From: an uncultured bacterium
GTDB lineage: Bacteria; Margulisbacteria; WOR-1; O2-12-FULL-45-9
Assembly (NCBI GenBank): GCA_964568455.1
Contig: CAZMPJ010000009.1
Coordinates: 306 to 64,305 of the forward strand
Direction of reading: 5' to 3'
DNA: 64,000 nucleotides
Part shown: piece by piece, positions 49,204 to 63,821 of the stretch
Layout of the letters: each line of letters begins with the position of its first letter
Position numbering within the stretch: the first letter of the stretch is position 1
Position numbers and translations under genes: made by a program
Notes under the pieces: model-generated
What the model was told of the DNA's origin: nothing
The model's database searches: none
The model's input: only the letters and a program-made list of their open reading frames with translations

Positions 49204-50358
49204 TTAGATAATTTTACCTTGCCATAGCTTTTCACAAAATGTGCGCCAGGGGAAAATCTCAATGCCGTCTTGTGTTATTCGGGTCTTTTTATCCAGGCTG
49301 ACAATGATTAATCGGTCAACTTTCTGGTCATCTTTCAGAGCCTTTAGGCCTTTTAAATGACGATTGTCAACAGATGGAGTGGCCTTAAACTCGATTGCCA
49401 ATTCCATATTGCCAACGATAAGATCAACTTCCATTCCAGTGCTTGTTTTCCAATAGGCAAGAGAAAGGTTTTTTTCTTTATAAGACAAAAAAGCTCTGAT
49501 TTCCTCAATCATAAAATGCTCAAAATATTGCCCAAATTCTTCGGTCCCAGATTGAATCTTGCGGAAACCAGATAAGGCCCTTACCACACCGGGATCAAAA
49601 AGGTAGAATTTTGCTGTTTCAATCAGCCGGCGTTTTTTCCTTTTTTTCCAGGGTTGAAGTTCATGGCCTAATAAAGTATCTTTCAGAATCTGATAATATT
49701 CCCGCACCGTTTTAGGCGAGACCCCGCAGTCTCTAGCGATATTAGCATAATTAATAAGCTGGCCATGGGTTAATGATACTGCGTCAAGAAAACGCGCAAA
49801 AGAAGGGATATTTCTAACCAATGCTTCTGCTCTGATTTCTTCTTCAAGATAATCAAAAACATAACTTTTTAGGCTGCGGTCTACTTTTTCCTCTAAATAA
49901 TGTTTTGGGATAAGTCCATGATTTAATATTCTTAAAAGATCAGCGTTGCCGATTTCTTTTGTGGTTAAAGGAAAAAGCTCAAAGCGCCAGGCACGCCCAC
50001 CGAGCAGATTAGCCGAGCCCCTTTTTAGTTTGCGGGCGCTGGAGCCGCACATGATAAATTTGGTTTTTGTGTTTTCCAGGCACCAGTGAATTTCATCCAT
50101 GAGGGCTGGCACCTTTTGTACTTCATCAATAATTACCAGCGCTGGTTTTTGTGCTAAAACCTCTTCTCTTAAAATTGAAGGCTTTAGTGTTAGCTGGGTT
50201 TTAAGCTCGGAGTTTAACAGATCATAATATTTTGCCTGGGGAAATTTTTGGTGGAGCAAGGTAGTTTTGCCAACTTTACGTGGCCCCCACAAAAAAGCCG
50301 CATTATTGCCTTCCAGATCGATTTCTAGTATTCTTTGGTATTCGGATAATATGGACAT
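49204..50358 (-). CDS. AAA+ ATPase of the AAA_14/DUF4143 family (second copy)
   Basis: Walker A 'GPRKVGKTTLL', Walker B 'LVIIDEVQ', DUF4143-like C-terminus; paralogous to 30412..31689. Confidence 0.75.
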   Translation of the reverse strand: MSILSEYQRILEIDLEGNNAAFLWGPRKVGKTTLLHQKFPQAKYYDLLNSELKTQLTLKPSILREEVLAQKPALVIIDEVQKVPALMDEIHWCLENTKTKFIMCGSSARKLKRGSANLLGGRAWRFELFPLTTKEIGNADLLRILNHGLIPKHYLEEKVDRSLKSYVFDYLEEEIRAEALVRNIPSFARFLDAVSLTHGQLINYANIARDCGVSPKTVREYYQILKDTLLGHELQPWKKRKKRRLIETAKFYLFDPGVVRALSGFRKIQSGTEEFGQYFEHFMIEEIRAFLSYKEKNLSLAYWKTSTGMEVDLIVGNMELAIEFKATPSVDNRHLKGLKALKDDQKVDRLIIVSLDKKTRITQDGIEIFPWRTFCEKLWQGKII

Positions 50359-50623: not shown

Positions 50624-53503
50624 TTATTTGTATGTCTTGAGCATGCTTGTTACGAATTTTATGGCTTTATCAAGTGTTTTAACCTTACTTTTAGGATCAA
50701 GCCTATCTGGTAAAGTTTTATTGCGTTTCTTTTTGTATTGTTTATTAAGAATTTTGGAGAATCTTTGCGACCACTTATCTAATCCTTTAAAGAACTTCTT
50801 ATTGTTTTTGTATTTATTTAATATAATAGCCAATTGCATAGCCATGTTTTCAGCCTCTGCCGGGCTAATTTTCTGTTTTTTGTCTCCAATTTCTTTTCTC
50901 TTGTACATTAATTGTTCAAGCATTTTTCCGGTTACATCTAGATCATAATCTAATTCAGAGCAACCTCTTTTATGCTTCATTTTGGCTTTTGTTATTTGTA
51001 TGATTTGATCTTTTGTAATTGCTTCTTTTGTTATTGTGAGCTCTGTTTCTCCTGTTTTTTTGCAATATTTAGCGAATAATCTTGTGGCGAGATTGCCAGA
51101 ATATAATCCTCCTGATATGAGGCTTAAAATAGCGGACTGTATTATTTGTTTAGCTCTGGTTTGCAGATAAGGAGGAAGAGAACCATAAGCATCCAGCAGC
51201 GCAAAGGATACGGTTTCCAATTCAGTATAATCCATAGTTATACTTAGTAATTTTATGTATTCTAATTGTATTCTTGCTTTTTGTTCGTTATTTGCTGTTT
51301 CTAGAGACTTTTTTAATCTTGCCGCATAAGTTATTGATGCTTCTACCTTTTTTCCTACAGTTGACTTGGACTCTTTCATCACTTTCTCATATTCTTCTTG
51401 GCCCGTTAAAGGCGGTGCAGCGAGCTCTATTAAGCTATCTATTTCGGCCTGCACTTGTTCTAATTTGATTTCTGTGTCTAATTCTGTCTTGCCTTTAGAT
51501 CTAAGCTGTTCATTTAGTTTTTCTGTTTTTTCTTTATAATTAGTTTTTACTCTTTGGGCAAAAGTCTCTCTATTCTTGATTAAATAAGTTCTTATTTCTA
51601 ATGCCAAAGCAGCTTCGTCTTTTTTTGTTCTATCAATGTTATCAAAAAATTCTTTTGTTGCTTGCATGAATAGTCCAGCTGCTTGATCTTTTAATTTGTC
51701 ATTTTGGCTATATTTTTGTTCCACTATTAATGCTTGTTTAGCTGCTTCTTTATATTGTTTTTCTTTTAATAATGTGCCTATTAATGATTGGCGTAGCTGG
51801 AAGGCTTTTTTGGTACTGCTTATGCCCGTATGTTGTTCTTCGAAAACTTTAATTTGTGCAATAGCTTCTTCATATCTTTCTTCTTTCAGGAGTTTTAAAA
51901 TTAAATTGTATCTTATTGTTTCATGTTTGTGATTTTTTAGATAATCCGTGGCTTGTTTAATAAACTCGTCAGGGTTTGATTTTGCTAAGCTGTTTATTTC
52001 ATATTCCTTTTTAAGATCAGAACCAGAAGTTTTTTCAGATTCACTCTTTTCCTCCACTTCCTCCCCCTTCAACCATGCTAAAAACTTATCCGTATCTTTA
52101 AGCTGTTTTGGGCTGTCAAGCTTGCTAGTATCCACCCAATAGTGCTCCAGAGAGGCACCTTTATCAAAGTATTTTTGCGGTAATTGAGCCAAAAATCCCA
52201 TGGTGAAGACAAAGTCCTGGACTTGGCCAGCCTTAGAAGGGGCGAGGTGGACCTGATATTTGTCTTCTAGGATAAGCAGAAAAGATTCGCGAATCGATAA
52301 TTCGTCGTCAATTAGCACGTGTTCAGCCTTAAACTCAAAATCCTTGGTATATGTAAGCCCAAGTAAATTACAAATAACCCTGGTAGCTGTTTCTTTATTT
52401 TCAGAACCAACTTTAGAAAGTAGGGCAGTAGCGCTAATTTCTTTTTTGCCAGCCATTAGTTTTTTGGTGGTTTTTGAAGTATAAACATAAACCCAGCGCT
52501 TGCTTTGCAGAGCAACTTTGAATAAAGTTGCATCATTTATGTTTAAGCCCCTTGAAACCATGTCAAGATGGGCTGCCATATCAACAAAGTCGTCTCCAGT
52601 AATTGCGTTGTCTCCATTTGAAATAACCCCGCCCATACTAAAGACGTTATAAGCTTGGTCAGAGGCTGCTGGATCAATCTTTTTAAACTCTTCTCTGGTA
52701 ATTAATCCATCAGCAAAAATTTGCTGGTAAAGCTCAAGACTCATGCCGGTTCTTTGAAAATGTGCCCAATAACCGTCGACAACCAGTTCTGCTTCATCAC
52801 CATTAACTTCTAGCTTTTCGCCGTCAACCTCAACTTTATACTTTTCAAAACCTTTGGACAGGACTTTATATGTGCCATCATCTTGTCTTTCAACTAAAAT
52901 TACTCTAGTAACTTCTTTTTTATCTACTTTTTCTGTAAAGGTGATAATGCGTTGGTTAGGTTCTAAGTTAGAACTTACTTTTGCAGAATGTTTTTTTAAT
53001 AGGCTTAATCCTTCCCCATTAATTACTTGAGGAGCGGCCTTAATGATAGCAATTATCATTTTCGTGCCAATTTCTGGATCGCGAAAATAAGCAGCTAAAT
53101 CATCAAAAGTATATTCTATATCATTAATAATTATTGATTCTTTCTTATCTGGATTAATGTTTGCTTCCCATTCTTTCCCACTAATCGAATCAATATTGTC
53201 GATAAAATTTTGTTCTTTCCCTGTTGATTTTATTAATGAGTCAGCTTCACGCCCAAGTTTAGCGAATTTTTTCTCAAGATCAGATCCTCTAATTTGTGTT
53301 AAGCAGATTTGATAGGCATCATTAGCATTGGCTCTTGCTTGGTTTAGATTTGCTAAAGTAGTTGAGGTGGGGGTTGTCTTATAAGCCTTGGTTGCTTTTT
53401 CAAGAGCACCAAGTCGAGTTTTTAATTTTTTTACTTGAGGACTCTCATCAGCAGGTCTAGCTGTGCTACGAGCTGACGATGCTCCTCCAACAGGCCTTAC
53501 CAT
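50624..53503 (-). CDS. Large coiled-coil/helical-repeat protein (959 aa), intact paralog of the 26628..29913 pseudogene
   Basis: ATG start with RBS GGAGGAAAC. The N-terminal ~400 aa are shared with the degraded paralog. The centre has a helical repeat resembling the giant protein's module ('YLKNHKHETIRYNLILKLLKEERYEEAIAQIKVFEE' versus 'AYLKIHKEEYEAKGVNVDFYITYFEIQGLLQDNKYAEAKDKIESLL'). Lys-rich C-terminus. Confidence 0.8.
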   Translation of the reverse strand: MVRPVGGASSARSTARPADESPQVKKLKTRLGALEKATKAYKTTPTSTTLANLNQARANANDAYQICLTQIRGSDLEKKFAKLGREADSLIKSTGKEQNFIDNIDSISGKEWEANINPDKKESIIINDIEYTFDDLAAYFRDPEIGTKMIIAIIKAAPQVINGEGLSLLKKHSAKVSSNLEPNQRIITFTEKVDKKEVTRVILVERQDDGTYKVLSKGFEKYKVEVDGEKLEVNGDEAELVVDGYWAHFQRTGMSLELYQQIFADGLITREEFKKIDPAASDQAYNVFSMGGVISNGDNAITGDDFVDMAAHLDMVSRGLNINDATLFKVALQSKRWVYVYTSKTTKKLMAGKKEISATALLSKVGSENKETATRVICNLLGLTYTKDFEFKAEHVLIDDELSIRESFLLILEDKYQVHLAPSKAGQVQDFVFTMGFLAQLPQKYFDKGASLEHYWVDTSKLDSPKQLKDTDKFLAWLKGEEVEEKSESEKTSGSDLKKEYEINSLAKSNPDEFIKQATDYLKNHKHETIRYNLILKLLKEERYEEAIAQIKVFEEQHTGISSTKKAFQLRQSLIGTLLKEKQYKEAAKQALIVEQKYSQNDKLKDQAAGLFMQATKEFFDNIDRTKKDEAALALEIRTYLIKNRETFAQRVKTNYKEKTEKLNEQLRSKGKTELDTEIKLEQVQAEIDSLIELAAPPLTGQEEYEKVMKESKSTVGKKVEASITYAARLKKSLETANNEQKARIQLEYIKLLSITMDYTELETVSFALLDAYGSLPPYLQTRAKQIIQSAILSLISGGLYSGNLATRLFAKYCKKTGETELTITKEAITKDQIIQITKAKMKHKRGCSELDYDLDVTGKMLEQLMYKRKEIGDKKQKISPAEAENMAMQLAIILNKYKNNKKFFKGLDKWSQRFSKILNKQYKKKRNKTLPDRLDPKSKVKTLDKAIKFVTSMLKTYK

Positions 53504-53664: not shown

Positions 53665-54285
53665 ATGGTAACAATGTGTGGACAACCACCAGTAAAAGGC
53701 GGTAAAATAGTACAAAGATTTTTTCCTATGAGAAAATTTACTACTTTAAGCCGAAATCCAGGACAAGAAACTGCTTATCGCGCATTAATGTCAAAATTAA
53801 ATGCCGCGCATGGATCAAGCCAAGAAAATATTAAGCACATCAATGATCTTGGTAGATTGTTAACCATGGTTGGGCAGGAAGTAAAAGATTGGTTCCCGGG
53901 ATCAGAAGTTTCGTTTCAAGGATCGCCTTCTTCTTCTCCCATTGAAAAAGCTGCTTCTGCATCAAAGCGCCTAATTTATATTCCTTCCCGCACAACAGAT
54001 ACAATTTATGTTTCTGGCAATACTGGCTCTGATTCAATTACTATGTTTTCCGCTATCCCGCCTCAACTAGGTTTAACGAACTTAGATTTTAATCCGGATG
54101 CCGGTTGTCTTGTGATTTGTCCCATGCTTTCTGGCGATGGCAATCCTGATTTTGAAGTCCAAGGTTTAATGTTGGTGACCAGAACCGCACCCGAAGCTTT
54201 TGACCCTCTAGTTGACCTGCCAATTTTGCGCATGTTGGCCAATGATACTGCTATTGTTATGGCGCAGAGCGAGTTAACTTTATAG
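53665..54285 (+). CDS. Hypothetical protein (206 aa), island-specific; start uncertain
   Basis: ORF divergent from the 959-aa gene, with no recognisable motif. The alternative start 'MRKF' is at 53731. Confidence 0.4.
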   Translation: MVTMCGQPPVKGGKIVQRFFPMRKFTTLSRNPGQETAYRALMSKLNAAHGSSQENIKHINDLGRLLTMVGQEVKDWFPGSEVSFQGSPSSSPIEKAASASKRLIYIPSRTTDTIYVSGNTGSDSITMFSAIPPQLGLTNLDFNPDAGCLVICPMLSGDGNPDFEVQGLMLVTRTAPEAFDPLVDLPILRMLANDTAIVMAQSELTL

Positions 54286-54598
54286 AAGAACCTTGCTCTA
54301 ATTAACCCATATTTTATCTCAAATCATCAGTTATCCCTAATTATCCCAAATAACATGCCACGAATTGAAGAATTCTCTTATTGCCCCAAATCTTCACAAA
54401 TTTAATTCTTCGTGATTATTCGTTAGATAAGAGAGTCTATTCGAGTATTCCGATTCGGATTAATTTGGGATTGTTGATACGGGATAAAATTTGGATTATT
54501 CGAGAAGCCAAACCTTAGCGCAAGATTTACCCCATTTAATTCGATTATACTACTGTAGCCCCTTATATTAATAGTGTAATGGGAAAAAGGAGAGTCCT

Positions 54599-57500
54599 GT
54601 GGGAGGACCAGTACGTTTTTTTACAAATGTAAATAGATCTCTGCCTACGCAAGGGCCAAAAGCAACCCCTGCGCTAAACGTATCTCAACAAAAAAGTACT
54701 CTGGCAGACCTGCGCAATGTTGGTTCTTCAAAACCAATGGGGTATTTGCCTACCTGGGCGATTGTTGCACAAGGAAGCACTGTTCCAGGTTTAACCGCAG
54801 AATTACAAGCTAAGGGGCTTAAAACAATTTATCTTCCTAGTGAAGGTGGTTGGCTTTTTGCTTATGATGAAGCCTCTCTTTCTGACCATTTAGATCGCAA
54901 TAGCGCAGTATTAGAAAAAGCTGGGTGGCCGACAACTGCAAGAGAATTTGTGCGTACTGTTTCAAAAGGAGGGGCACCGCATAAAACCAAGCTTTATGAT
55001 GTGGTTGCCGATGCCTTTGGAGACAGTAAAAACCCTGGCCGGTTGGACAATGTGCATACTAGTGATGTGGATTGGGAGTCAACCATAAAATATTATGAAG
55101 ACAGCGGTAATCAGCCGGAAGTAGATAGATTAAAAAAATTGCGTAGTGTTCAGCGCTTACAAAGAGGTGCGGCTGCATCTGGGCTTCCTGGACTTTTTGA
55201 TAATTATGCTGAAGCCCTTGAAGCAAAATCGGTTCCAGAAGTAACTCCAAAGCCAGCCCCACAACCCCAACCCAAAACTTTTGTTGAAATAACCAGAATG
55301 GATTTAAACTCTGGCAAGCCTTCGCGCTGGGCAGTGGTTAATTTTTCCGGTTTAAAATATGTTAATGATAACTATACCGGTGGTCACGTTGCCGGTGATG
55401 CTTATCTTGAGGCAGCAGAAAGCAAAATCAGGGAAATTGCCGGGCAAGCCGGCATAAAAGAAATCTTTATTGTGCGCGATGGCCCCAACTTTTCTATTCA
55501 TTTGCCGGAAGGCGTTAGAAGTAATTTTGCTATGAGTCAGATAGAAGCTGCTTTTGCTCAAGGCATAACTTTTCAATATGAATATAAAGGTCAAACCTTA
55601 ATCAAAACTTATACACCAGCTACAGAGGGCAGGGCAAAAATTGCTACTGCTGGAATTCTCGCTTTTGATGTGTCAGCCAAAGAGATGTCGTCCGAGGCAA
55701 TGGGAAGGGCGCGCTCGCAAGAGATTTATTATTTAAACCGGCCAGAAGCAGGCCGCCGGGCTGGGGAAATATTTGTGGTTGATGCCAAGTATGGCGAATA
55801 TCTTGAAACCTTAACCTTGAAAAACCGTTTGATTGATAGAAATCCCCGTGTAACAGCAACAGGTCCTAATGTTGAGCCGCGCAGCCAGCTGCACAATGTT
55901 GACCAGCTAAAACTTGATGCTGAAAACATGATGAAAAAAGGCAAATCAGTTCGTTTTGCTTTTTTTGATGGCAATGCCATTGGGTCTTGGCGTACCTTTG
56001 GTTTTGTTGGCGAGCTTTTCATGGACGCTATTATTGAGCAACGTATTGCTGAAGCAGCTACTGTTTTGCCCAAAGGAGTAACTATTTATCGCCATGGGCC
56101 AGGCTCCGAAGAATTTTATTTATTAGCAGATGGTGAACAATATTCTGAAGCGCAAATGCAGGAAATGGCAAAAGAATTTATGCGCTCCTTGAATGAAAAG
56201 CCTTTAAGATTAAAAGTTGAAAGTAACACCTTAGAAGCAACCGAAATGGGCCGGCGCTATCTGGAAGCATGGCAGAAAAAAAATCCCGGCAAAGCTGTGC
56301 CAGAAACATTAGAGGTAGATGTTACCAAAGCAGTGAGAGGTAGGGGTGGGGTTTATCATCAAGGTATAACAGTTACGATGGGAGTTGGAACTATTAAGCC
56401 TGATTCTGGCTCTGCCCAAGAAGCTTTTGAAAAAGGATTTCATAAAATCGTTGAACAAGGTGAGGCAGCGAAAAAGCTTAATCCAAAACGTAGAAATTTC
56501 TTGGTGCAGGTTGATGGAGATCAAGCCAAAGTAATTCCTTTAGAAATAGATGGGCGTGATTTCTTGGAAGTTAATCGAGATAATATCCGTTTTGTTGATA
56601 GTCGAATAAATTCGAATTTTTCAGTTAATGATTTAATGCGTTTAAATCTTGGACCCAAAAGTACTTTTAAATATAAAGGCTGTATTTATAAAGTGTCTGC
56701 CTCTTTTGATTTTAAAGGCCGCACAGCTATGATTCTTTATTTTGCTAATGGTGACGGAATTTATCAGGCGCGCATGGTTTACAAGAGCAATTCTCACTTG
56801 ACCCAGCGCGCTATTCCAAATACTGCAATGGGCTGGGCTGGCAAGGGAGTTGGTTCCAGTGAGTCTGTTGCTTATCCGCATGAAGTGCAAAGATTTTTAG
56901 AAGAAAATGCTCAAAAGCATAAAGTGAATCTTTCCGAGGCTCACAGCGAGGCTCTTGGTGAAGGAATATTAAGGTTTGGAACTGAACCCGAAAAAACTTA
57001 TGTTGGTGGAATGAGAAAAGCTACGGCTCCTTTGGATATAGGAGAATTTACCGGTACTACACCAGATAGCTTTAAATTTAAGCCTGGTTTTGAGCCGGAA
57101 ATCCCAAAGAATATTAAACCTTCCTATCAAGTTGCCGACTCTGCTACCGGACAATATTTGGATGCTTATGTTGTTTTGTCTAAAAATAAAAAAGTTTCAT
57201 ATCTATTTTTCTGTGATCAAAAAGGCAATGGAGCTTTAGTTTCTTATCAGGCAACAGACTTTTATCCTAATGAATATGGGGTTAATCAGCTGCAGGTTTT
57301 AGGTAAAAGCGAAAAATTGATTATGCCTATCAGGGAAAGAGCGCATAATATTCCGGCTGGCTACACAGGGAAAAAAGCAGGGGTATATACAGATGCCACT
57401 CCTTGGACTAATCAGCTTCCCCCAGTAAAAGAATTACTAAGGAAGGTGCGCGGACAGGAAAACTCAAAAGTTATCAGGATTAAACTTTCTGCTCAAGAAG

Positions 57501-59824
57501 AAGCAGCGTTAACCAGGGAAAAATTGGTGATTAAGCAATACCGCGGAAAAGCTTTAGTTGTAATTGAGCTTAAGCCAGGGGAGAGGAAAGCTTTTTATTT
57601 TTCTGAAAATTTAGATGTTAAAACAAATGGAAAAACTATAATAGTTTCTAAAAAGGGTCTTTCTAATATCGCACATATGGAAGGATCTGTTTTTGTTTAT
57701 CAAAGTCCAGCTGAAATGGTGGAAAGTTTAACCAAAAAGCCTAAATTGTTTGGCGAAGAAGTAAGAAGCCAGACTTTTGTTTTAGATGAAGGCAGCTGGA
57801 AGGCTAGAGGGGTTGCGATGAATGCGGGGATTAACCCTCTTCAAAAACCCGTTTTTACTGATGACCGCCTGGTGGTTGAAACTAAGCCGAGCCGAGCAAA
57901 AAAGTTGGCAGCTAAATATGATGTCCCAGTGAAGATTGCAAAAAGAGCGTTAGCTATAAGCCAAGATTCAAAGGCAAGATTAAAAGCGGCAAAAACTCAA
58001 GCCATGAAAAGGATTGACCGACTAAATAAAAGCGCCCAGGAAAAAGCCAGGATGAAAGCCGAAGCAGCTAAGGGTTGGGATGCAGCTATTGCAGAAGTGG
58101 AAGAAGCTTCAGTTAAAAAAGCTGTAATTGATCAATTAAAAAAAGAAAGAAAAGTACTTAGAAAAGAAGTAAAAACTCTTAAAAAACAAAGAGCGCCAAA
58201 ATCAGAGATTAGAGCCAAGGCAAAAAGATTGGCAGAGTTAGACAATGTTTTAGACGGTAAAGTTAAAAAATTTGCTAAAGCCCACGGTCAAATGCTGGCT
58301 TTGCTTTTAACTATGGATGTGATTCGTCATTGGTCTGAAGTTAAAACCGGAAACTTAGGCGGTGTTGTGCAAACAGGAGTTGGTTCTGTGGCAGGATACG
58401 GTATGTTTGTGGGTACAGAAAAAACAATTGGAGTTTTGACTGGAATATCAAAAAGCAGTGCACTTACAGGAGCAGGAACCATTATTCCTGCGGCACACTC
58501 TGCTTATGCGCATAGAAATCATTTTACTTCAGTTGATAGCGATGCAGCCATGTTAGCCGGAATTGATGTGGTTAAAGAGGGTATTGCTGGCTATCTTTCT
58601 ACTAAAGCTATGATTGCGGTTACTGCTGCTACTGCTGAAACCGGTCCTTTTTCATTATTGTTTGGGCTGGGAGCTGCTTCAGTTACTTATATTGCAACAG
58701 GTAAATTAGCCGAGGTTTTAGGTTATGATCAGTTTTTAGAAAAAAGATTTACTCGGGCAGAGATTAAAGATGCTTTTAGGGACTTAAGTTATGGTGGAAC
58801 CAAATTAGTGGTTAAACGAGGCCGTACTAATACTCCTTATTTTAATAATAAAGATGTTGAAATTGCTAAGGATGTAAAAATTTCCCGAGCCCAGCAAACC
58901 TTGATGATGTTAACCGCTATGAAAAATTATTTTAATATGTCAACAACAGAAAGACTGGCTTTTGCTGCTGATAAGAATAACCATGCTATTATTACTGCTT
59001 TTAATACTCTTTTTGCAGTAGAAGAATTGCACATTGATGATTATAGTGATCTTTCTCCAGAAGCCTTTGATGCTATTGTTAAATCTGTGGGTAGATTTTA
59101 TCAGCAAGACAAATCTCCTGGTCAGTATAGAAAAGTAAAAGTAAGGCTTAGAACTAAACAAGAAAAAATTTATCATCCTTTAACCAATGAAATTGTAGGA
59201 CTTAGGACTGTTTATCGAGTAACGGTTGTTGGTCAAAAGCATCAGGCTACCTTGGGTTGGAATGGAGTGGAGTGGGAGCCAATAGAGGGGACAAAGCGAA
59301 AAAAGACTTTTAAAACAAAAGGAGAGATTGTTCCTGTCGGTGACCCAAATAAACTAGTAGAAGCGCAGGTATTGCAAAAAGGAATGGTGGCTAATGTATT
59401 TACGATTTCCTTGCCAGAAATGATAGGTTTAGGTATAAGCATTCCTTTTGATCAGTTGAAGCGTTTCCCGGTAGTTATGGAAGGCTTAGCTAAAAATCTA
59501 AGCATGTTGGGTTATAAAGTAGAAGATGAGTTTTTACATAAAGTAACTCCTGGCAGCCGTGCAGTAACTCCCGGTAGTCTTTATAAAGCCTATTATCAGT
59601 TTTGTAAAGACCAAGGTTTTCCTTTTGAAGGGCAAGAAAATTACAATCCTGATTTTGCACTTTTGCCTAGTAATAAAACGCCTAAACTTGATTATAGGGG
59701 TGCAGCCTGGATATTAATTGAGCTTGATCCAGAGGCCAAAGCTCAAGTTGAAGTAGTAAGACAAGAAATGCAGCGCAAAAGAGAAATTAAGAAAATTACA
59801 GATATGTTTAAGGTTTCTAATTGA
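54599..59824 (+). CDS. Giant protein (1,741 aa) with two tandem degenerate GGDEF-like domains, a central coiled-coil and a Gly-rich hydrophobic segment
   Basis: GTG start 6 nt after RBS AAAGGAGAG. First GGDEF-like unit: 'VVNFSGLKYVNDNYTGGHVAGDAYLEAAESKI...IVRDGPNFSIHLPEG'. Second unit: 'FAFFDGNAIGSWRTFGFVGELFMDAII...IYRHGPGSEEFYLLADGE'. Both are collinear with the diguanylate-cyclase consensus '(D-x-D)FK.+ND.+GH..GD.VL...A..L ... RYGGEEF', but GG(D/E)EF is replaced by DGPNFS or GPGSEEF. Hydrophobic 'GGVVQTGVGSVAGYGMFVG...LLFGLGAASVTYIATG' at about 58350-58740. Confidence 0.85.
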   Translation: MGGPVRFFTNVNRSLPTQGPKATPALNVSQQKSTLADLRNVGSSKPMGYLPTWAIVAQGSTVPGLTAELQAKGLKTIYLPSEGGWLFAYDEASLSDHLDRNSAVLEKAGWPTTAREFVRTVSKGGAPHKTKLYDVVADAFGDSKNPGRLDNVHTSDVDWESTIKYYEDSGNQPEVDRLKKLRSVQRLQRGAAASGLPGLFDNYAEALEAKSVPEVTPKPAPQPQPKTFVEITRMDLNSGKPSRWAVVNFSGLKYVNDNYTGGHVAGDAYLEAAESKIREIAGQAGIKEIFIVRDGPNFSIHLPEGVRSNFAMSQIEAAFAQGITFQYEYKGQTLIKTYTPATEGRAKIATAGILAFDVSAKEMSSEAMGRARSQEIYYLNRPEAGRRAGEIFVVDAKYGEYLETLTLKNRLIDRNPRVTATGPNVEPRSQLHNVDQLKLDAENMMKKGKSVRFAFFDGNAIGSWRTFGFVGELFMDAIIEQRIAEAATVLPKGVTIYRHGPGSEEFYLLADGEQYSEAQMQEMAKEFMRSLNEKPLRLKVESNTLEATEMGRRYLEAWQKKNPGKAVPETLEVDVTKAVRGRGGVYHQGITVTMGVGTIKPDSGSAQEAFEKGFHKIVEQGEAAKKLNPKRRNFLVQVDGDQAKVIPLEIDGRDFLEVNRDNIRFVDSRINSNFSVNDLMRLNLGPKSTFKYKGCIYKVSASFDFKGRTAMILYFANGDGIYQARMVYKSNSHLTQRAIPNTAMGWAGKGVGSSESVAYPHEVQRFLEENAQKHKVNLSEAHSEALGEGILRFGTEPEKTYVGGMRKATAPLDIGEFTGTTPDSFKFKPGFEPEIPKNIKPSYQVADSATGQYLDAYVVLSKNKKVSYLFFCDQKGNGALVSYQATDFYPNEYGVNQLQVLGKSEKLIMPIRERAHNIPAGYTGKKAGVYTDATPWTNQLPPVKELLRKVRGQENSKVIRIKLSAQEEAALTREKLVIKQYRGKALVVIELKPGERKAFYFSENLDVKTNGKTIIVSKKGLSNIAHMEGSVFVYQSPAEMVESLTKKPKLFGEEVRSQTFVLDEGSWKARGVAMNAGINPLQKPVFTDDRLVVETKPSRAKKLAAKYDVPVKIAKRALAISQDSKARLKAAKTQAMKRIDRLNKSAQEKARMKAEAAKGWDAAIAEVEEASVKKAVIDQLKKERKVLRKEVKTLKKQRAPKSEIRAKAKRLAELDNVLDGKVKKFAKAHGQMLALLLTMDVIRHWSEVKTGNLGGVVQTGVGSVAGYGMFVGTEKTIGVLTGISKSSALTGAGTIIPAAHSAYAHRNHFTSVDSDAAMLAGIDVVKEGIAGYLSTKAMIAVTAATAETGPFSLLFGLGAASVTYIATGKLAEVLGYDQFLEKRFTRAEIKDAFRDLSYGGTKLVVKRGRTNTPYFNNKDVEIAKDVKISRAQQTLMMLTAMKNYFNMSTTERLAFAADKNNHAIITAFNTLFAVEELHIDDYSDLSPEAFDAIVKSVGRFYQQDKSPGQYRKVKVRLRTKQEKIYHPLTNEIVGLRTVYRVTVVGQKHQATLGWNGVEWEPIEGTKRKKTFKTKGEIVPVGDPNKLVEAQVLQKGMVANVFTISLPEMIGLGISIPFDQLKRFPVVMEGLAKNLSMLGYKVEDEFLHKVTPGSRAVTPGSLYKAYYQFCKDQGFPFEGQENYNPDFALLPSNKTPKLDYRGAAWILIELDPEAKAQVEVVRQEMQRKREIKKITDMFKVSN

Positions 59825-59858
59825 GATTCCCCTCGCATTGTGCTATATTATAGCCTCT

Positions 59859-60797
59859 ATGGGAAAGCTACGTCATAAAGATCTTATTTCAATTCACGAC
59901 TTAAGTCCTTTAGAAATAAAGGATATATTTGACCTTGCGGCAAAGCTCAAAAAAATGCAAAAGGACAACGAAAAACACGAGTATCTTTGGGCAAAATCCT
60001 TGGCCATGATTTTTGAAAAACCATCCACCCGCACTCGAGTTTCTTTTGAAATCGGTATGTGGCAGTTGGGCGGTTTAGCCATTAATCTTGATCAAGAGGC
60101 AATTGGCTTGGGTGTGCGTGAGTCAATCGGCGATGTAGCCAAAACTTTGTCCCGCTTTGCTGATGCGCTATTAGTACGCACTTTTGAACATAACACAGTT
60201 ATTGAGCTGGCAAAGTATTCTACTGTTCCAGTGATAAACGGGCTTTCAGATTTACTTCATCCTTGCCAGGCTTTAGCTGATTTGTTTACCATTCAAGAAA
60301 GTAAAGGCAAACTTAAAGGTTTAAAACTTAGCTATATTGGCGACGGTAATAATGTTTGCCATAGTTTAATGTTAGCTGCCGCTAAAACAGGCTTAAATAT
60401 GACCGTGGCTTGTCCCAAAGGCTATGAGCCTAAGGAAAAAATTGCCAAACTGGCTTTTAGCGATGCTAAAAAATCGGGAGCTGAAATCAACATTTTAAAC
60501 GATCCAATAGTAGCAGTTAAGGATGCGGATGTGGTTTATACCGATGTCTGGGCGTCAATGGGCCAAGAAAAGCAAAAAGCTCAGCGCGCAAAAATTTTCC
60601 AAAAATACCAAGTTAATAAACAATTAATGAAACTGGCAAAACCAGATGCCATTGTTATGCATTGTCTGCCTGCTCATCGTGGTGAAGAGATTACCAATGA
60701 TGTGGTAGATGGCAAGCAATCTGTGGTGTTTGACCAGGCTGAAAATCGCTTACATGTGCAAAAGTCCATCCTTACATTATTACTGGGGGGAATATAA
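59859..60797 (+). CDS. argF: Ornithine carbamoyltransferase
   Basis: '[11 protein letters not shown]' carbamoyl-phosphate-binding motif, '[10 protein letters not shown]', '[12 protein letters not shown]'. Likely start 'MGKLRHKDL'. Confidence 0.9.
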
Positions 60798-61993
60798 TGA
60801 TAAAAAAGGTAGTTCTAGCTTATTCTGGCGGTCTTGATACCTCGGTTATGATCCCCTGGCTAAAAGAAAATTATAATTGCGAAGTAATTGCTTTTGCGGC
60901 TGACGTTGGCCAAGAAGAAGAATTAAAAGGCCTGCGTGGTAAAGCTTTAAAAACCGGAGCGTCAAAAATCTATGTTGAAGATTTAACCAAAGAATTTGCC
61001 GAAGATTTTCTCTGGCCCATGCTTAAATCTGGCGCGATTTATGAAGGTAATTATCTATTGGGAACCTCGATTGCTCGTCCTTTAATTGCTAAAAAACAAG
61101 TAGAAATCGCTAAACGAGAAAAAGCTGATGCAGTTGCCCATGGTGCCACTGGCAAAGGCAATGATCAAGTTCGATTTGAGTTAACTTTTAAAGCTTTGGC
61201 GCCTGAACTAAAAATTGTAGCTCCTTGGCGGGAGTGGGATATTAAGGGGCGGATTGAAGCAATGGAATATGCGAAAGAGCGAAAAATTCCAGTTCCAGTT
61301 ACAGTGGAAAAACCTTATTCATCTGACCGTAACCTTTGGCACATTAGTTATGAGGGTGGCATACTTGAAGATCCTTGGTTTGAACCTAAAGAAGAGATGT
61401 TTATCTTAACCAAATCACCAGATAAAGCTTCTAGCCGGCCAACTTATGTTGAAATTGAATTTGAAAAAGGCATTCCTAAAAAGTTAAATGGTAAAAAACT
61501 GGACGCAGTTAAATTAATTAAAAAATTAAATGCTCTTGGCGGTAAAAATGGAGTAGGCCGAGTGGATGTGGTAGAAAATCGCTTAGTAGGAATTAAATCC
61601 CGAGGGGTTTATGAAACTCCGGGCGGAACTATTCTTTATAAAGCGCATCAAGCACTTGAAACCATAACGCTTGATCGTGATGTCATGCACTATAAGCAGT
61701 TAATCTCTCAGAAATACGCAGAATTAATTTATAATGGCCAATGGTTTACTCCTTTGCGCGAAGCTTTGGATAAATTCATTGATAAAGTAGCGGAAAACGT
61801 TAGCGGAGTTGTGCGTTTAAAACTTTATAAGGGCAATTGCACTGTGGTAGGCCGAAAAGCGCCTAAATCACTTTATCGACCTGATTTAGCTACATTTGAA
61901 AGCGAAGAAATTTATAATCAAAAAGACGCCGAAGGGTTTATTAACCTTTTTGGTTTGCCAATTAAAGTTGAGGCCCAATTAAGGAGGAAATAG
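60797..61993 (+). CDS. argG: Argininosuccinate synthase
   Basis: 'AYSGGLDTS' PP-loop motif; canonical ArgG core; 398 aa. Confidence 0.95.
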
Positions 61994-62041
61994 TTAATGG
62001 CGAAGAAGAAAAAGAAAGCTAAGACCAAGAAAGCGCGTAAG

Positions 62042-63427
62042 ATGAAAAAAGCATGGGCCGGCAGGTTTCGCGAGCCTATGGCAAAATCAGCTGAAGCATT
62101 TTCCAGTTCAGTGCATTATGATGTTCGTCTTTATAAACAGGATATTGTCCAGAGCATGGCTTACGCCCAAATTCTGGTTAAAGCTAATATTTTAACTGCT
62201 AAAGAAGCTAAAAAAATCATTAAAGCCTTAGAAGCTATTTTGGTTGGTATTGAAAAGGGCAAAATTAAATTAAAACCAGAACTTGAAGACGTCCATATGA
62301 ATGTTGAATCATTATTAATTGAAAAAGTGGGGGATATGGGGAAGAAGTTACATACTGGCCGTTCTCGCAATGACCAGATTTCAACTGATCTGCGCATGTA
62401 TTTAAAATATGAAACCACTGAAATATTGCTTTTAATCAGGAAACTACAAGATACCCTGCTTGATTTAGCGGAAAATAATATCGAAATAATTATGCCTGGC
62501 TATACCCATCTACAAAGGGCTCAACCCATACTTTTTTCTCATCATATGATGGCTTATATTGAAATGCTGGAAAGGGATAAAACGCGGCTTTTAAATGTGG
62601 CTGAAGAAGTAGATGTATTGCCGCTTGGTTCCGCGGCTCTGGCAGGATCCAATATAAAGCTTGACCGGCAAGCCTTGGCTGACGAACTGGGTTTTTCTAA
62701 AATATCCAACAACAGCATGGATGCTGTTTCTGATCGTGATTTTGTGATTGATTTTAATTCTGCCTGTGCGGTCTTGATGATGCATTTATCCAGGTTTTGC
62801 GAAGAGTTAGTGATTTGGTCAACTTATGAATTTAGCTTTATTGAGCTTTCCGATAAATATAGTACTGGCTCATCCATTATGCCGCAAAAAAAGAATCCTG
62901 ATATTGCTGAACTTATTCGAGGTAAAACCGGTCGGGTTTACGGCAATTTAATGGCCTTGTTAACCATTATGAAGGGGACGCCTTTAACCTATAACCGTGA
63001 TATGCAGGAAGATAAGGAAGCAATTTTTGACAGTGTTGATACCGTAAGATCAGTGCTGTCAATTTTTGAAGAAATGATAGCTACTGTCAAAATTAATGGT
63101 GAACAAATGGAAAAAGACGCTAAAAAAGGCTTTTTAACTGCTACAGATTTAGCTTACTATTTAGTTGGCAGGGGAGTTGCTTTCCGAGAAGCCCATGCTA
63201 TTGTGGGCGAAGTTGTGGCTTATTGCGAAGATTCTAATATGCAGATTGAATATCTTTCTTTAAAGCAGCTTAAACAATTTTCAAGCGCATTTACTTATGA
63301 TGTTACTCGTATCCTTTCTTCCGAAAGTTCAGTCCAAAGCAAAGATTTATTAGGCGGCACATCGCCAAAAAGAGTAAAGGAAGCAATTAAGCGTGCTCGA
63401 AAACACTTACTTCATGATAAAGCCTGA
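62042..63427 (+). CDS. argH: Argininosuccinate lyase
   Basis: 'WAGRF' N-terminus and fumarate-lyase signature 'GSSIMPQKKNPD'. The Lys-rich 5' extension in the ORF track (61997) is probably not translated. Confidence 0.9.
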   Translation: MKKAWAGRFREPMAKSAEAFSSSVHYDVRLYKQDIVQSMAYAQILVKANILTAKEAKKIIKALEAILVGIEKGKIKLKPELEDVHMNVESLLIEKVGDMGKKLHTGRSRNDQISTDLRMYLKYETTEILLLIRKLQDTLLDLAENNIEIIMPGYTHLQRAQPILFSHHMMAYIEMLERDKTRLLNVAEEVDVLPLGSAALAGSNIKLDRQALADELGFSKISNNSMDAVSDRDFVIDFNSACAVLMMHLSRFCEELVIWSTYEFSFIELSDKYSTGSSIMPQKKNPDIAELIRGKTGRVYGNLMALLTIMKGTPLTYNRDMQEDKEAIFDSVDTVRSVLSIFEEMIATVKINGEQMEKDAKKGFLTATDLAYYLVGRGVAFREAHAIVGEVVAYCEDSNMQIEYLSLKQLKQFSSAFTYDVTRILSSESSVQSKDLLGGTSPKRVKEAIKRARKHLLHDKA

Positions 63428-63821
63428 CGGGGTTGCCCGTGGGTTAGATCAAGAAATCATTAAAAGAGTTGAAACAGCCGGTTTAAAAATAGTAGAGAAG
63501 AAAAAACTGGAAATTACTAAAGAACTGGCGGAAGATATCTATTCTCCACACAAAGGTAAACCATTTTATAATGGCCTTTTAAAATTTATCACTTCCGGAC
63601 CAGTGATTGCTACAGTAGTTCAAGGAGACAATGCTATTCAAAGACTGCGAGATCTTATGGGTGCTACTGATCCAGAAGAGGCGGCGCCAGGCACGATTCG
63701 CGGAGATTTAAAAGAAGAAAACATTCGTACTGCCGAGGGCACGATTAAAAATCTGGTGCATGGTTCAGATAGTTTGGAATCCGCAAAAAGAGAATCCAAG
63801 ATATTTTTTAAGGGGGTTTGA
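63393..63821 (+). CDS. ndk: Nucleoside diphosphate kinase
   Basis: 'TYFMIKPDGV' start and 'NLVHGSDS' active-site His motif; 142 aa. Confidence 0.9.
   Translation: MLENTYFMIKPDGVARGLDQEIIKRVETAGLKIVEKKKLEITKELAEDIYSPHKGKPFYNGLLKFITSGPVIATVVQGDNAIQRLRDLMGATDPEEAAPGTIRGDLKEENIRTAEGTIKNLVHGSDSLESAKRESKIFFKGV

What the first reader, a model, noticed from the sequence alone, without database searches (positions are those of the whole stretch)
54599..59824. 1,741-aa protein with two tandem degenerate GGDEF-like domains and a Gly-rich hydrophobic segment
Residues ~240-520 contain two consecutive units collinear with the diguanylate-cyclase (GGDEF) palm domain. Unit 1 is 'WAVVNFSGLKYVNDNYTGGHVAGDAYLEAAESKIREIAG...EIFIVRDGPNFSIHLPEG'. 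Unit 2 is 'VRFAFFDGNAIGSWRTFGFVGELFMDAIIEQRIAEAA...VTIYRHGPGSEEFYLLADGEQYSEAQMQEMAKEFMRSL'. In GGDEF enzymes the corresponding blocks are 'ID+D.FK.INDT+GH..GD.VL' and 'RYGGEEF.+++P'. Here the signature is DGPNFS in unit 1 and GPGSEEF in unit 2, with a one-residue insertion. Unit 1 is probably catalytically dead, and unit 2 has uncertain or altered activity. GGDEF-fold proteins with altered signatures are known to make other cyclic dinucleotides, so this could be a signal generator or sensor for the island. Downstream there is a long Lys-rich coiled-coil (~58000-58300), a Gly/Ala-rich hydrophobic segment similar in character to the one in the 5,408-aa protein (~58350-58740), and a ~350-aa C-terminal domain without motifs. 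The gene has a GTG start with a strong RBS and a 300-bp AT-rich leader.
Basis: partly seen in the sequence, partly recalled or inferred. Interest (0 to 1): 0.75.

Follow-up and report, generated by a model that had tools for sequence, protein, structure and literature searches.

The report
Fused pair of GGDEF-like cyclase domains
This 1,741-residue protein of a Saganbacteria-type genome carries two fused copies of the enzyme fold that bacteria use to make the signal molecule c-di-GMP, one copy catalytically dead and one apparently live, and it defines a very rare, lineage-restricted family whose chemistry is untested.

Summary
ORF 54599-59824 (+) is real and has a 59%-identical full-length orthologue.

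Residues 225-650 form a conserved module of two GGDEF-fold domains:
- Profile searches hit solved diguanylate cyclases (unit 1, E 2.4e-9; unit 2 against a small GGDEF profile, E 5.8e-10).

Unit 1 (DGPNF) has lost both metal-binding acids but keeps the base-binding Asn/Asp and a Lys. Unit 2 (RHGP-GSEEF) keeps the metal ligands and phosphate-binding Lys/Arg, which are invariant across about 25 diverged relatives. It has a two-residue insertion and a changed base pocket.

My best reading is a single-chain, asymmetric nucleotidyl transferase or cyclase with one active site. This is inferred, not shown.

The family is tiny: about 30 representatives among 1.84 billion proteins, and every named member is from Saganbacteria (WOR-1). 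The gene sits at a conserved spot just upstream of argF-argG-argH, usually behind a conserved ORF of about 206 aa. This looks like a conserved chromosomal locus, not a mobile island. I rate it a new variant of a known kind, of moderate interest.

The parts
54599..59824 (+). Whole gene, 1741 aa: N-terminal region, tandem GGDEF-like module, mid domain, Lys/Ala-rich stretch, Gly/Ala-rich segment, C-terminal domain
   Evidence: ORF list and translation. An identical protein is present in public assemblies. A full-length orthologue is 59% identical over residues 285-1737 (L008).
54286..54598 (+). 313-bp leader with an AGGAG ribosome-binding site 6 nt before the GTG start
   Evidence: Sequence read. 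GC is 34%. No plus-strand sigma-70-like promoter was found. No Rfam or riboswitch match was found.
54599..55270 (+). N-terminal region (residues 1-224), no recognisable domain and no signal peptide-like start
   Evidence: No Pfam, NCBIfam or PDB sequence match. This region is not conserved in P0002 or P0003.
55274..55780 (+). Unit 1 (residues 226-394): degenerate GGDEF-fold domain. N248 replaces the metal-binding Asp. K253, N256, H263 and D267 are retained.
   Evidence: The family profile hits diguanylate cyclases at E 2.4e-9 over this unit. The model topology is alpha0-beta1-alpha1-alpha2-beta2-beta3-alpha3-beta4-beta5-beta6-alpha4-beta7. N24, N32 and G42 of the module are invariant in 21 sequences.
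55475..55492 (+). Unit 1 signature R293-DGPNF298, in place of RxGG(D/E)EF
   Evidence: The HMMER alignment to 4urq pairs 'R.dGpnF' with 'RyGGDEF'. Residue numbers verified.
55871..56536 (+). Unit 2 (residues 425-646): GGDEF-fold domain with catalytic ligands retained (D457, E504, E505, K625, R631/R632), an insertion of about 50 aa between beta4 and beta5, and family-specific invariant residues D574 and R580
   Evidence: hhalign against a GGDEF profile gives prob 96.6%, E 5.8e-10. PDB hits are dominated by GGDEF. Invariant columns are listed. Secondary structure is from the model.
56090..56116 (+). Unit 2 signature R498-H-G-P-G-S-E504-E505-F506, which is RxGG(D/E)EF with a two-residue insertion
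   Evidence: Alignments. R, E and E are invariant and S is nearly invariant. Residue numbers verified.
56549..57733 (+). Mid domain (residues 651-1045), unknown fold, shared only with P0012 and the orthologue L008
   Evidence: BLASTP to P0012 gives 39% identity, E 1e-81. Identity to L008 is 51%. No PDB or Pfam match.
57899..58303 (+). Lys/Ala-rich stretch (residues 1101-1235), probably a coiled coil
   Evidence: Composition is 29 K, 10 R and 27 A in 136 residues. The only matches are weak ones to coiled-coil regions of LmuB/SbcC-like models. Identity to L008 is 63%. A coiled coil was not tested directly.
58304..58768 (+). Gly/Ala-rich, weakly hydrophobic segment (residues 1236-1390); the most conserved part between close orthologues
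   Evidence: Composition. Kyte-Doolittle maximum is 1.33. Identity to L008 is 77%. Not detectably homologous to the Gly-rich domains of other family members.
58769..59821 (+). C-terminal domain (residues 1391-1741), unknown fold
   Evidence: Identity to L008 is 73%. No homologues were found in the word-index search of residues 1231-1741. No PDB match.
53665..54285 (+). Conserved upstream partner ORF (206 aa), function unknown, with a weak GAF-like hint in its C-terminal 60 residues
   Evidence: A homologue lies immediately upstream of the family member in L003, L004, L005, L009 and L010. It has only 4 clusters in 5.8 billion proteins. GAF hints are Pfam GAF_2 at E 0.15 and PDB GAF domains 6uv8 and 5w10 at E 0.24-0.29.

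Best explanation
The gene encodes a large cytoplasmic or membrane-associated multidomain protein. Its conserved core (residues 225-650) is a covalently fused pseudo-heterodimer of two GGDEF-fold (diguanylate-cyclase-type palm) domains that arose by internal duplication.

**Shown**
- Both units have the GGDEF fold.
- Unit 1 has lost both metal-binding carboxylates (N248; DGPNF). It keeps the residues that in diguanylate cyclases contact the substrate base and the transition state (K253, N256, H263, D267).
- Unit 2 keeps the metal-binding Asp and Glu (D457; E504-E505 in GSEEF), the arginine of the RxGG motif (R498) and the phosphate-binding Lys/Arg (K625, R631/R632).
- Unit 2 has lost the base-binding Asn, the His and the transition-state Lys (R465, a deletion, and G462 at those positions).

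**Inferred**
- The two units together form one asymmetric active site. Unit 2 would hold the Mg-NTP donor and catalyse nucleotidyl transfer. Unit 1 would hold a second nucleotide as acceptor or as allosteric ligand.
- Only one of the two phosphodiester bonds of a cyclic dinucleotide could then be made per encounter. The product could be a linear pppNpN, a mixed cyclic dinucleotide or an oligonucleotide rather than plain c-di-GMP.
- The small conserved upstream protein may be a regulatory (GAF-like) subunit.
- The well-conserved Gly/Ala-rich and C-terminal regions are the output or localisation part.
For: **Rarity and conservation**
- The module is the only region conserved across the family.

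**Fold**
- The family profile matches solved diguanylate cyclases at E 2.4e-9.
- Unit 2 matches a GGDEF profile at E 5.8e-10, prob 96.6%.
- Unit 1 matches unit 2 at E 6.6e-7.
- The AF2 model has pLDDT 94.2 and pTM 0.90, and each unit has the full GGDEF topology. The reference topology and PleD residue roles are taken from PMC12943098.
- Foldseek gives 77 PDB hits at E<1e-3, led by diguanylate cyclases.

**Catalytic retention in unit 2**
- At a mean column identity of 33%, the only invariant residues of unit 2 are the metal Asp, the R of RxG, the two Glu of SEEF, and D574 and R580.
- The Lys equivalent to PleD K442 is invariant in the 21-sequence module alignment and nearly invariant in the 25-sequence unit 2 alignment; the Ser of GSEEF is nearly invariant.

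**Complementary loss**
- Unit 1 has invariant N248 and N256.

**Signalling context**
- Relatives fuse the module to cNMP-binding, HD, adenosine-deaminase and Ser/Thr-kinase domains.

**Partner**
- The partner ORF is conserved upstream in 6 of 7 loci that show upstream context.

**Established knowledge**
- Two GGDEF domains, each with one GTP, must pair for catalysis (PMC7825114, abstract seen).
Against: - No enzymatic or binding data exist.
- I could not inspect the model coordinates, so I do not know whether the unit 2 metal site faces the unit 1 base pocket.
- The hairpin that carries the catalytic Glu has a two-residue insertion, and K332, N335 and H340 equivalents are missing from unit 2. 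These changes could abolish activity.
- The query itself is below Pfam's GGDEF threshold.
- Invariant Asp, Glu and Arg residues could also serve metal-dependent nucleotide binding without turnover.
- Between close orthologues the GGDEF module is less conserved (57-62%) than the Gly-rich and C-terminal parts (73-77%). The module may therefore not be the most constrained function.
Confidence: 0.45

Rival explanations
1. Non-catalytic nucleotide receptor or scaffold. Both units would be degenerate GGDEF domains that only bind a nucleotide (GTP, c-di-GMP or another signal) and pass that information to the C-terminal regions. Degenerate GGDEF domains of FimX, LapD and PelD, and the GTP-sensing domain of CC_3396, work this way.
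For: - Unit 1 is clearly dead but keeps base-binding residues.
- Unit 2 has an altered hairpin and lacks K332, N335 and H340 equivalents.
- Degenerate GGDEF domains with sensor roles are well documented (PMC12943098).
- FimX and LapD GGDEF domains are among the structural matches.
- The C-terminal half is the most conserved part between orthologues.
Against: - The unit 2 metal ligands D457, E504 and E505, together with R498, are strictly invariant, and K625 is invariant or nearly so, across relatives that share only 20-30% identity. Receptors that have given up catalysis usually lose these residues.
- Neither unit has an RxxD I-site at the usual position (read from the sequence).
Confidence: 0.3
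2. Ordinary diguanylate cyclase. Unit 2 domains of two protein molecules would pair, for example through the Lys-rich coiled coil, and make c-di-GMP. Unit 1 would be a regulatory appendage.
For: - The closest structures are all c-di-GMP synthases.
- Unit 2 keeps D327, E370, E371, K442 and R446 equivalents.
- A coiled-coil-like stretch that could drive dimerisation exists at residues 1101-1235.
Against: - In unit 2 the guanine-binding Asn335 equivalent is Arg or variable.
- The Asp344 equivalent is Glu here and varies (E/D/S/N/G) across the family.
- The transition-state Lys332 equivalent is Gly.
- The candidate dimerisation element lies about 450 residues from the module and is not conserved in the family.
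Confidence: 0.15
3. Rapidly diversifying effector or conflict protein. The protein would be exported or inserted into a membrane through its Gly/Ala-rich region, and the GGDEF-like module would act as the payload or trigger.
For: - Regions outside the module are not alignable between family members, although the flanking Arg enzymes are 70-89% identical.
- 15 relatives carry one of two unrelated Gly/Ala-rich hydrophobic domains after the module.
- One of those domains also occurs in the neighbouring 5,408-aa giant.
- AAA_14/DUF4143 ATPases that match a PADLOC candidate defence family lie nearby.
Against: - There is no signal peptide or known secretion signal, and no clear transmembrane helix in this protein.
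- The protein itself has no hit above noise to PADLOC or PHROGs.
- The family is absent from viral contigs.
- The gene has a fixed chromosomal position next to argFGH.
Confidence: 0.08
4. Chance resemblance. The motifs would be coincidental and there would be no palm or GGDEF domain.
For: Pfam on the whole protein finds nothing. On the sub-fragment it gives only E 0.033, below threshold.
Confidence: 0.01

Closest known systems
Canonical GGDEF diguanylate cyclases (PleD, WspR, DgcZ/YdeH, TM1788, SadC; Pfam PF00990)
   Same: - The motifs are collinear. Unit 2 carries E-P-x-S-G-L-x-N (= DxLTGLxNR), FFD (metal Asp), RxG..EEF, TvTxG and AK..RN.
   Different: - Two GGDEF-fold domains are fused in one chain, and each has lost a different half of the active-site residues.
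- The signature hairpin is DGPNF in unit 1 and GP-GSEEF in unit 2, the latter with a two-residue insertion.
- There is no RxxD I-site.
- Unit 2 has an insertion of about 50 aa that carries the invariant D574 and R580.
- The query falls below Pfam's threshold.
Degenerate, non-catalytic GGDEF domains (FimX, LapD, PelD; the GTP-sensing GGDEF of CC_3396)
   Same: Unit 1 resembles these: a GGDEF fold with a ruined signature motif and a retained nucleotide-binding potential. FimX and LapD are structural matches. The roles of these domains are taken from PMC12943098.
   Different: Those domains are paired with an EAL domain or stand alone. Here the dead domain is paired with a second GGDEF-fold domain that keeps its catalytic residues.
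Cas10 (Csm1/Cmr2) of type III CRISPR systems: two palm domains in one chain, of which only Palm2 (GGDD) is catalytic
   Different: - There is no GGDD motif, no HD domain, no zinc-finger or D4 region, and no cas genes nearby.
- That Cas10 uses Palm1 for the acceptor ATP is my recollection and was not tested here.
Pseudo-heterodimeric class III nucleotidyl cyclases (mammalian adenylyl cyclase C1/C2, soluble guanylyl cyclase alpha/beta)
   Different: They belong to a different branch of the palm-cyclase superfamily. In class III enzymes each site is built from both subunits, whereas in GGDEF enzymes each domain binds its own NTP.
GTP cyclohydrolase III (MJ0145, PDB 2qv6)
   Different: It is a hydrolytic ring-opening enzyme with far lower structural similarity, and no shared motifs were seen.

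Membership tests
GGDEF-fold domain superfamily (Pfam PF00990 and relatives) | Statistically significant profile similarity to GGDEF domains | tested here: met
   - The family profile matches PDB diguanylate cyclases at E 2.4e-9 for unit 1.
- The unit 2 profile matches a GGDEF profile at E 5.8e-10.
- Relatives P0017, P0018 and P0023 score 27.6-29.0 bits, above the Pfam cut-off of 23.8.
- The query alone scores only 14.4 bits.
GGDEF-fold domain superfamily (Pfam PF00990 and relatives) | alpha0-beta1-alpha1-alpha2-beta2-beta3-alpha3-beta4-beta5-beta6-alpha4-beta7 topology and 3D similarity | tested here: met
   - Model secondary structure gives this order for unit 1 (module 2-170).
- It gives the same order for unit 2 (module 210-422), with an extra helical hairpin and beta-hairpin. 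The reference topology is from PMC12943098.
Active diguanylate cyclase (c-di-GMP synthase) | Intact GG(D/E)EF signature in the beta2-beta3 hairpin | tested here: inconclusive
   - Unit 1 has DGPNF, so the feature is not met there.
- Unit 2 has G-P-G-S-E-E-F. EEF is retained and GS stands in place of GG, with a two-residue insertion after RxG.
Active diguanylate cyclase (c-di-GMP synthase) | Metal-binding carboxylates (PleD D327 and E370) | tested here: inconclusive
   - Unit 1 has N248 and N297, so the feature is not met there.
- Unit 2 has D457 and E504, both invariant in the family, so the feature is met there.
- Only one of the two domains qualifies.
Active diguanylate cyclase (c-di-GMP synthase) | Guanine-recognising Asn335 and Asp344 | tested here: not met
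   - In the potentially catalytic unit 2 these positions are R465 (Arg or variable in the family) and E472 (E/D/S/N/G in the family).
- Both residues are present in the dead unit 1 as N256 (invariant) and D267.
Active diguanylate cyclase (c-di-GMP synthase) | Phosphate-binding Lys442 and Arg446, and transition-state Lys332 | tested here: inconclusive
   - Unit 2 has K625 (invariant or nearly so) and R631/R632 in a 'GEAAKKLNPKRRN' motif collinear with 'AK..GRN'. This assignment rests on motif order in the alignment, not on a structural superposition.
- The Lys332 equivalent is G462 in unit 2 but K253 in unit 1.
Active diguanylate cyclase (c-di-GMP synthase) | Synthesis of c-di-GMP from two GTP | not testable with these tools
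   This needs biochemistry.
Active diguanylate cyclase (c-di-GMP synthase) | RxxD allosteric I-site five residues before the signature (common but not obligatory) | tested here: not met
   The residues preceding R293 are G-I-K-E-I-F-I-V and those preceding R498 are L-P-K-G-V-T-I-Y. Neither contains RxxD (sequence).
Hypr GGDEF (cGAMP-making subclass) | Ser in place of Asp344 with an otherwise intact GGDEF active site | tested here: not met
   - The unit 2 position is Glu in the query; Ser occurs in only a few distant relatives.
- Asn335 is also absent.
- The definition is from PMC12943098.
Cas10 / type III CRISPR polymerase-cyclase | GGDD Palm2 motif, HD nuclease domain, and association with csm or cmr genes | tested here: not met
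   - There is no GGDD motif.
- Pfam finds no HD domain in the protein.
- The flanking genes are arg genes, AAA_14/DUF4143 ATPases and large unknown ORFs.
Class III adenylyl/guanylyl cyclase | Closest structural and sequence similarity to the class III catalytic domain | tested here: not met
   - Pfam gives no Guanylate_cyc hit.

The most novel reading that the evidence does not exclude
The family would be a Saganbacteria-specific, single-chain asymmetric GGDEF enzyme whose two half-sites have divided the work: unit 2 as donor site and unit 1 as acceptor site. It would make a nucleotide signal other than c-di-GMP, such as a linear pppNpN, a mixed cyclic dinucleotide or an oligonucleotide. It would be controlled by a small GAF-like partner and coupled, in cis or through the neighbouring giant protein, to Gly-rich membrane-active domains. 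That would make it a self-contained signalling-effector module of a kind not yet described.
Probability: 0.2. Interest if true: 0.75.

Novelty: new variant of a known kind. Interest (0 to 1): 0.55.

Why it matters
GGDEF enzymes are normally regulated by whether two identical domains meet. A permanently fused pair in which each copy has kept a different half of the active-site residues is a different design. It recalls Cas10 and mammalian adenylyl cyclase, but it lies inside the GGDEF branch.

If unit 2 is active, the product may be a new nucleotide messenger in a poorly known, uncultured lineage (Saganbacteria, sister to Cyanobacteria). The family would then widen the known chemistry of GGDEF domains.

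If unit 2 is inactive, the family is still a clean natural example of complementary degeneration after domain duplication. It also gives a first functional handle on several giant, otherwise unannotated Saganbacteria proteins.

The family is very small and lineage-restricted, so the general impact is moderate.

Tried and rejected
- **Whole-protein scans.** Pfam, NCBIfam, PADLOC and PHROGs gave only noise or coiled-coil-type matches.
- **First structure model.** The 3-sequence alignment gave pLDDT 68. I superseded it with the 21-sequence model.
- **AlphaFold database search.** The afdb50 fold library was not available.
- **Genome scans.** The genome scan with the 21-sequence alignment failed for lack of a conserved stretch. 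The 3-sequence alignment found only two Saganbacteria genomes. The viral-contig scan found nothing.
- **C-terminal 511 residues.** The word-index homologue search returned nothing, not even the protein itself.
- **Other regions against PDB.** The N-terminal, mid and C-terminal regions had no PDB sequence relatives.
- **Gly-rich segment.** I tested whether it is homologous to the Gly-rich domains of other family members. Two internally homologous groups emerged (A with 8 proteins, B with 7). Neither matches the other or the query (hhalign prob <3%).
- **Large neighbours.** The 959-aa and 5,408-aa neighbours have no detectable counterparts in the 1,022-aa and >3,262-aa ORFs at the syntenic locus L006.
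- **Other copies in the window.** No second copy of the module exists in the window.
- **Leader.** No riboswitch or other Rfam family was found there, and no plus-strand consensus promoter.
- **Literature.** Searches for Saganbacteria plus GGDEF found nothing, and searches for tandem or two GGDEF domains found no description of this family.
- **Model geometry.** I could not read the model coordinates, so the geometry between the two units was not examined.
Full report
**1. The observation**

The ORF at 54599-59824 (+) is present as described. It has 1741 codons and a GTG start, and an AGGAG lies 6 nt upstream. Public gene calls give the identical 1741-aa product on contigs up to 232 kb.

Both quoted peptide blocks are there, at residues 244-305 and 451-531.

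Downstream features mostly match the description:
- The Lys-rich stretch 1101-1235 has 29 K and 27 A in 136 residues.
- The Gly/Ala-rich segment 1236-1390 has 41 G+A in 155 residues.
- That segment is only marginally hydrophobic. The Kyte-Doolittle 19-residue maximum is 1.33, so no clear transmembrane helix can be called.
- The 313-bp leader is 34% GC against 38% for the window, so it is only mildly AT-rich.

**2. Rarity and what is conserved**

A word-index search of 5.8 billion clusters found only two other clusters. Both align with the query only over residues 225-650, at 40% identity and E about 1e-87.

An exhaustive HMMER search of 1.84 billion representatives, using a profile of that module, found 38 proteins. 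Of these, 29 score at E<=1e-10, and the weakest few are repeat proteins or ordinary GGDEF proteins.

Most members are 1,000-2,500 aa long. Every member that carries an organism name is from candidate division WOR-1, that is Saganbacteria. No relative was found in viral contigs.

**3. Is it GGDEF?**

Sequence evidence:
- On its own the query is sub-threshold. Pfam GGDEF gives E 0.033 and 14.4 bits against a cut-off of 23.8, and the 3-sequence profile gives E 1.3 to one diguanylate cyclase.
- A 21-sequence family alignment (A2) hits about 45 solved GGDEF proteins through unit 1. The best is TM1788 at E 2.4e-9. The alignment pairs N248 with the metal Asp, K253/N256/D257 with FK.IND, H263..G266-D267 with GH..GD, and R293-DGPNF with RyGGDEF.
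- Unit 2 alone gives a PDB hit list made almost entirely of GGDEF proteins, but at E 0.05-1.
- Against a small GGDEF profile (TM1788, SadC and two domains of P0036), unit 2 scores prob 96.6% and E 5.8e-10 over 117 columns.
- The two units match each other at prob 92% and E 6.6e-7, which indicates an internal duplication.
- Relatives P0017, P0018 and P0023 pass Pfam's own GGDEF threshold.

Structural evidence:
- The 3-sequence model was poor (pLDDT 68).
- The 21-sequence model reached pLDDT 94.2 and pTM 0.90.
- Its secondary-structure order reproduces the GGDEF topology alpha0-beta1-alpha1-alpha2-beta2-beta3-alpha3-beta4-beta5-beta6-alpha4-beta7 twice. The reference topology is from PMC12943098. 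Unit 2 has an extra helical hairpin and beta-hairpin between beta4 and beta5.
- Foldseek against the PDB gave 77 hits at E<1e-3, led by diguanylate cyclases.

The module therefore belongs to the GGDEF branch specifically, not just to the wider palm-cyclase superfamily.

**4. Residue-level anatomy**

PleD residue roles are taken from PMC12943098:
- D327 and E370 bind the metals.
- N335 and D344 bind guanine.
- K442 and R446 bind phosphates.
- K332 stabilises the transition state.

| PleD residue | Role | Unit 1 | Unit 2 |
|---|---|---|---|
| D327 | metal | N248 (invariant Asn) | D457 (invariant) |
| K332 | transition state | K253 (retained) | G462 |
| N335 | guanine | N256 (invariant) | R465 |
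| H340 | - | H263 (nearly invariant) | deleted |
| D344 | guanine | D267 (Asp or Asn in most relatives) | E472 (variable: E/D/S/N/G) |
| R366 of RxGG | - | R293 | R498 (invariant) |
| E370 | metal | N297 (in DGPNF) | E504 (invariant) |
| E371 | - | F298 region | E505 (invariant) |
| K442 | phosphate | - | K625 (invariant in A2, nearly invariant in A3) |
| R446 | phosphate | - | R631/R632 |

Further points on unit 2:
- S503 is nearly invariant.
- The signature reads R-H-G-P-G-S-E-E-F, a two-residue insertion relative to R-x-G-G-E-E-F.
- It also keeps the lead-in motif E-P-x-S-G-L-x-N, which corresponds to D-x-L-T-G-L-x-N-R.
- Two further invariant residues, D574 and R580, sit in the family-specific insertion.
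- Neither unit has an RxxD I-site.

At a mean column identity of 33%, the invariant residues of unit 2 are essentially the catalytic set. That is the main argument that catalysis, or at least metal-nucleotide binding, is retained.

The losses in the two units are complementary. Unit 1 keeps base and transition-state residues but no metal ligands. Unit 2 keeps metal and phosphate ligands but not the base pocket.

**5. Genomic context**

The three genes downstream are argF, argG and argH. The stop codon of the big gene is 14-35 bp from the argF start, depending on which start is used. That leaves no room for a terminator.

The same arrangement (family member, then argF-argG-argH, then ndk where the contig reaches far enough) recurs in three other loci:

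| Locus | Source | Arg enzyme identity to window |
|---|---|---|
| L003 | Saganbacteria MAG | 70-76% |
| L006 | locus of the distant member P0018 | 74-79% |
| L008 | metagenome contig | 79-89% |

The window is therefore almost certainly from a Saganbacteria-type genome. The gene sits at a conserved chromosomal position and is not on a mobile island.

L008 encodes a full-length orthologue, 59% identical over residues 285-1737. Identity by region:

| Region | Identity to L008 |
|---|---|
| Unit 1 | 57% |
| Unit 2 | 62% |
| Mid domain | 51% |
| Lys-rich stretch | 63% |
| Gly-rich segment | 77% |
| C-terminal domain | 73% |

The unannotated C-terminal half is thus real and strongly constrained, although no distant homologue is detectable.

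Immediately upstream, the 206-aa ORF (53665-54285) has homologues in the same position in L003, L004, L005, L009 and L010. Identity is 23-36%, and hhalign or HMMER E-values range from 1e-11 to 1e-101. That is 6 of 7 loci with upstream context. It is missing only at L006.

The partner is as rare as the big protein, with 4 clusters. The only hint to its fold is a set of weak, convergent matches of its last 60 residues to GAF domains: Pfam GAF_2 at E 0.15 and PDB 6uv8 and 5w10 at E 0.24-0.29. I treat this as a lead, not a finding.

**6. Family architecture**

Relatives fuse the tandem module to several signalling domains:
- two cNMP-binding domains plus an HD domain (P0017);
- a cNMP-binding domain plus an adenosine deaminase domain (P0023, P0033);
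- a Ser/Thr protein kinase domain (P0009).

These partners fit nucleotide signalling.

Fifteen relatives carry a Gly/Ala-rich, moderately hydrophobic domain after the module. These domains fall into two internally homologous groups, A with 8 proteins and B with 7. The groups are not detectably related to each other or to the query's Gly-rich segment.

The group B profile does hit the neighbouring 5,408-aa protein of this window at residues 4585-4727. The score is 23.8 bits and E is 3e-7 among the window's ORFs, while 500 composition-preserving shuffles reached at most 7.4 bits. A domain fused to the module elsewhere is thus encoded here by the neighbouring giant gene. This is a modest fusion-type link between the two genes.

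**7. Mechanism and rivals**

Established knowledge is that a diguanylate cyclase works only when two GGDEF domains, each loaded with GTP, pair antiparallel (PMC7825114).

Here a pair is hard-wired into one chain, and only unit 2 keeps the catalytic metals.

- **Best reading (confidence about 0.45): a single-site, asymmetric nucleotidyl transferase or cyclase.** Unit 2 would activate the donor NTP, and unit 1 would hold a second nucleotide as acceptor or allosteric ligand. The base pocket of unit 2 is altered, and only one half-reaction can be catalysed per encounter. The product therefore need not be c-di-GMP.
- **Main rival (about 0.3): a non-catalytic nucleotide receptor,** as in FimX, LapD or CC_3396. 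The strict invariance of the catalytic residues argues against it.
- **Ordinary c-di-GMP synthesis by intermolecular pairing of unit 2 (about 0.15).** This is disfavoured because the Asn335 and Lys332 equivalents are missing.
- **An exported or membrane-inserting conflict effector (about 0.08).** The rapid divergence and the Gly-rich domains suggest it. No secretion signal, defence-family hit or mobile context supports it.
- **Chance resemblance.** This is excluded.

**8. Comparison, novelty and limits**

The module is a member of the GGDEF fold family. The profile, topology and structure criteria are all met.

It fails or only half-meets the criteria for an active diguanylate cyclase. It is not a Hypr GGDEF, a Cas10 or a class III cyclase.

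In design it resembles Cas10 and the C1/C2 adenylyl cyclases, which also have two palm domains and one active site. I found no description of this family in the searchable literature.

I rate it a new variant of a known kind. The fold is known. The fused, complementarily degenerate pair and its lineage-restricted family of giant proteins are not.

Limits:
- There is no biochemistry.
- The model coordinates could not be inspected for the geometry between the units.
- The afdb50 library was unavailable.
- About 1,300 of the 1,741 residues remain without any fold assignment.

Noticed in passing
window 53665-54285 (+): A 206-aa ORF with no family assignment lies immediately upstream of the big gene. 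It has homologues in the same position at five other loci (L003, L004, L005, L009, L010). Its last 60 residues weakly resemble the end of GAF domains (E 0.15-0.29). It may be a regulatory partner.
   Followed up: yes
window 33844-34272 (- strand; residues 4585-4727 of the 5,408-aa ORF 31798-48024): The neighbouring giant protein contains a Gly-rich 'GLGWA+FG'-type domain. In seven other family members (P0017, P0018, P0022, P0024, P0028, P0030, P0033) this domain is fused behind the tandem GGDEF-like module. The match scores 23.8 bits, and 500 shuffles reached at most 7.4 bits.
   Followed up: partly
window 59838-63821 (+); also L003, L006, L008: argF-argG-argH follow the big gene directly. An ORF of about 142 aa comes next and aligns with the position where a Pfam NDK gene was called in L006. 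The same order is kept at three other loci, with Arg enzymes 70-89% identical. The gap to argF is only 14-35 bp, which suggests co-transcription.
   Followed up: partly
window 49204-50358 (-) and 30412-31689 (-): Two AAA_14/DUF4143 ATPase genes flank the 5,408-aa gene. The copy at 49204-50358, the only one scanned, matches the PADLOC candidate defence family PDC-S01 (E 2.8e-60).
   Followed up: no
window 50624-53503 (-) and 48195-49136 (-): ORFs of 959 aa and 313 aa lie on the opposite strand from the partner and the big gene, and match no family. At the syntenic locus L006, a 1,022-aa ORF and a >3,262-aa ORF occupy the same relative positions but show no detectable sequence similarity.
   Followed up: partly
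window 54593-54609: A short inverted repeat (AGTCCT GTGGG AGGACC) places the GTG start codon in the loop of a 6-bp hairpin just after the ribosome-binding site. The scan flagged it only as a minus-strand terminator-like site.
   Followed up: no
related protein P0025, residues about 500-580: In this relative the 'YRHGGGSDELYM' hairpin comes before the 'FDGNKFSSFRQFGLAGE' block. The order of the unit 2 motifs therefore appears permuted relative to the rest of the family.
   Followed up: no
related protein P0016, residues 1172-1270: This 2,362-aa relative has an additional weak unit 1-like copy (domain E 0.0018) far downstream of its main module.
   Followed up: no
related proteins P0036 (431 aa) and P0041 (657 aa): Two weak hits of the family profile are ordinary-looking proteins that each carry two GGDEF-type domains in tandem. 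Their signatures are GGDEF/AGDEF in P0036 and SGDEF/HGDEV in P0041. Fused GGDEF pairs therefore also exist outside this family.
   Followed up: no
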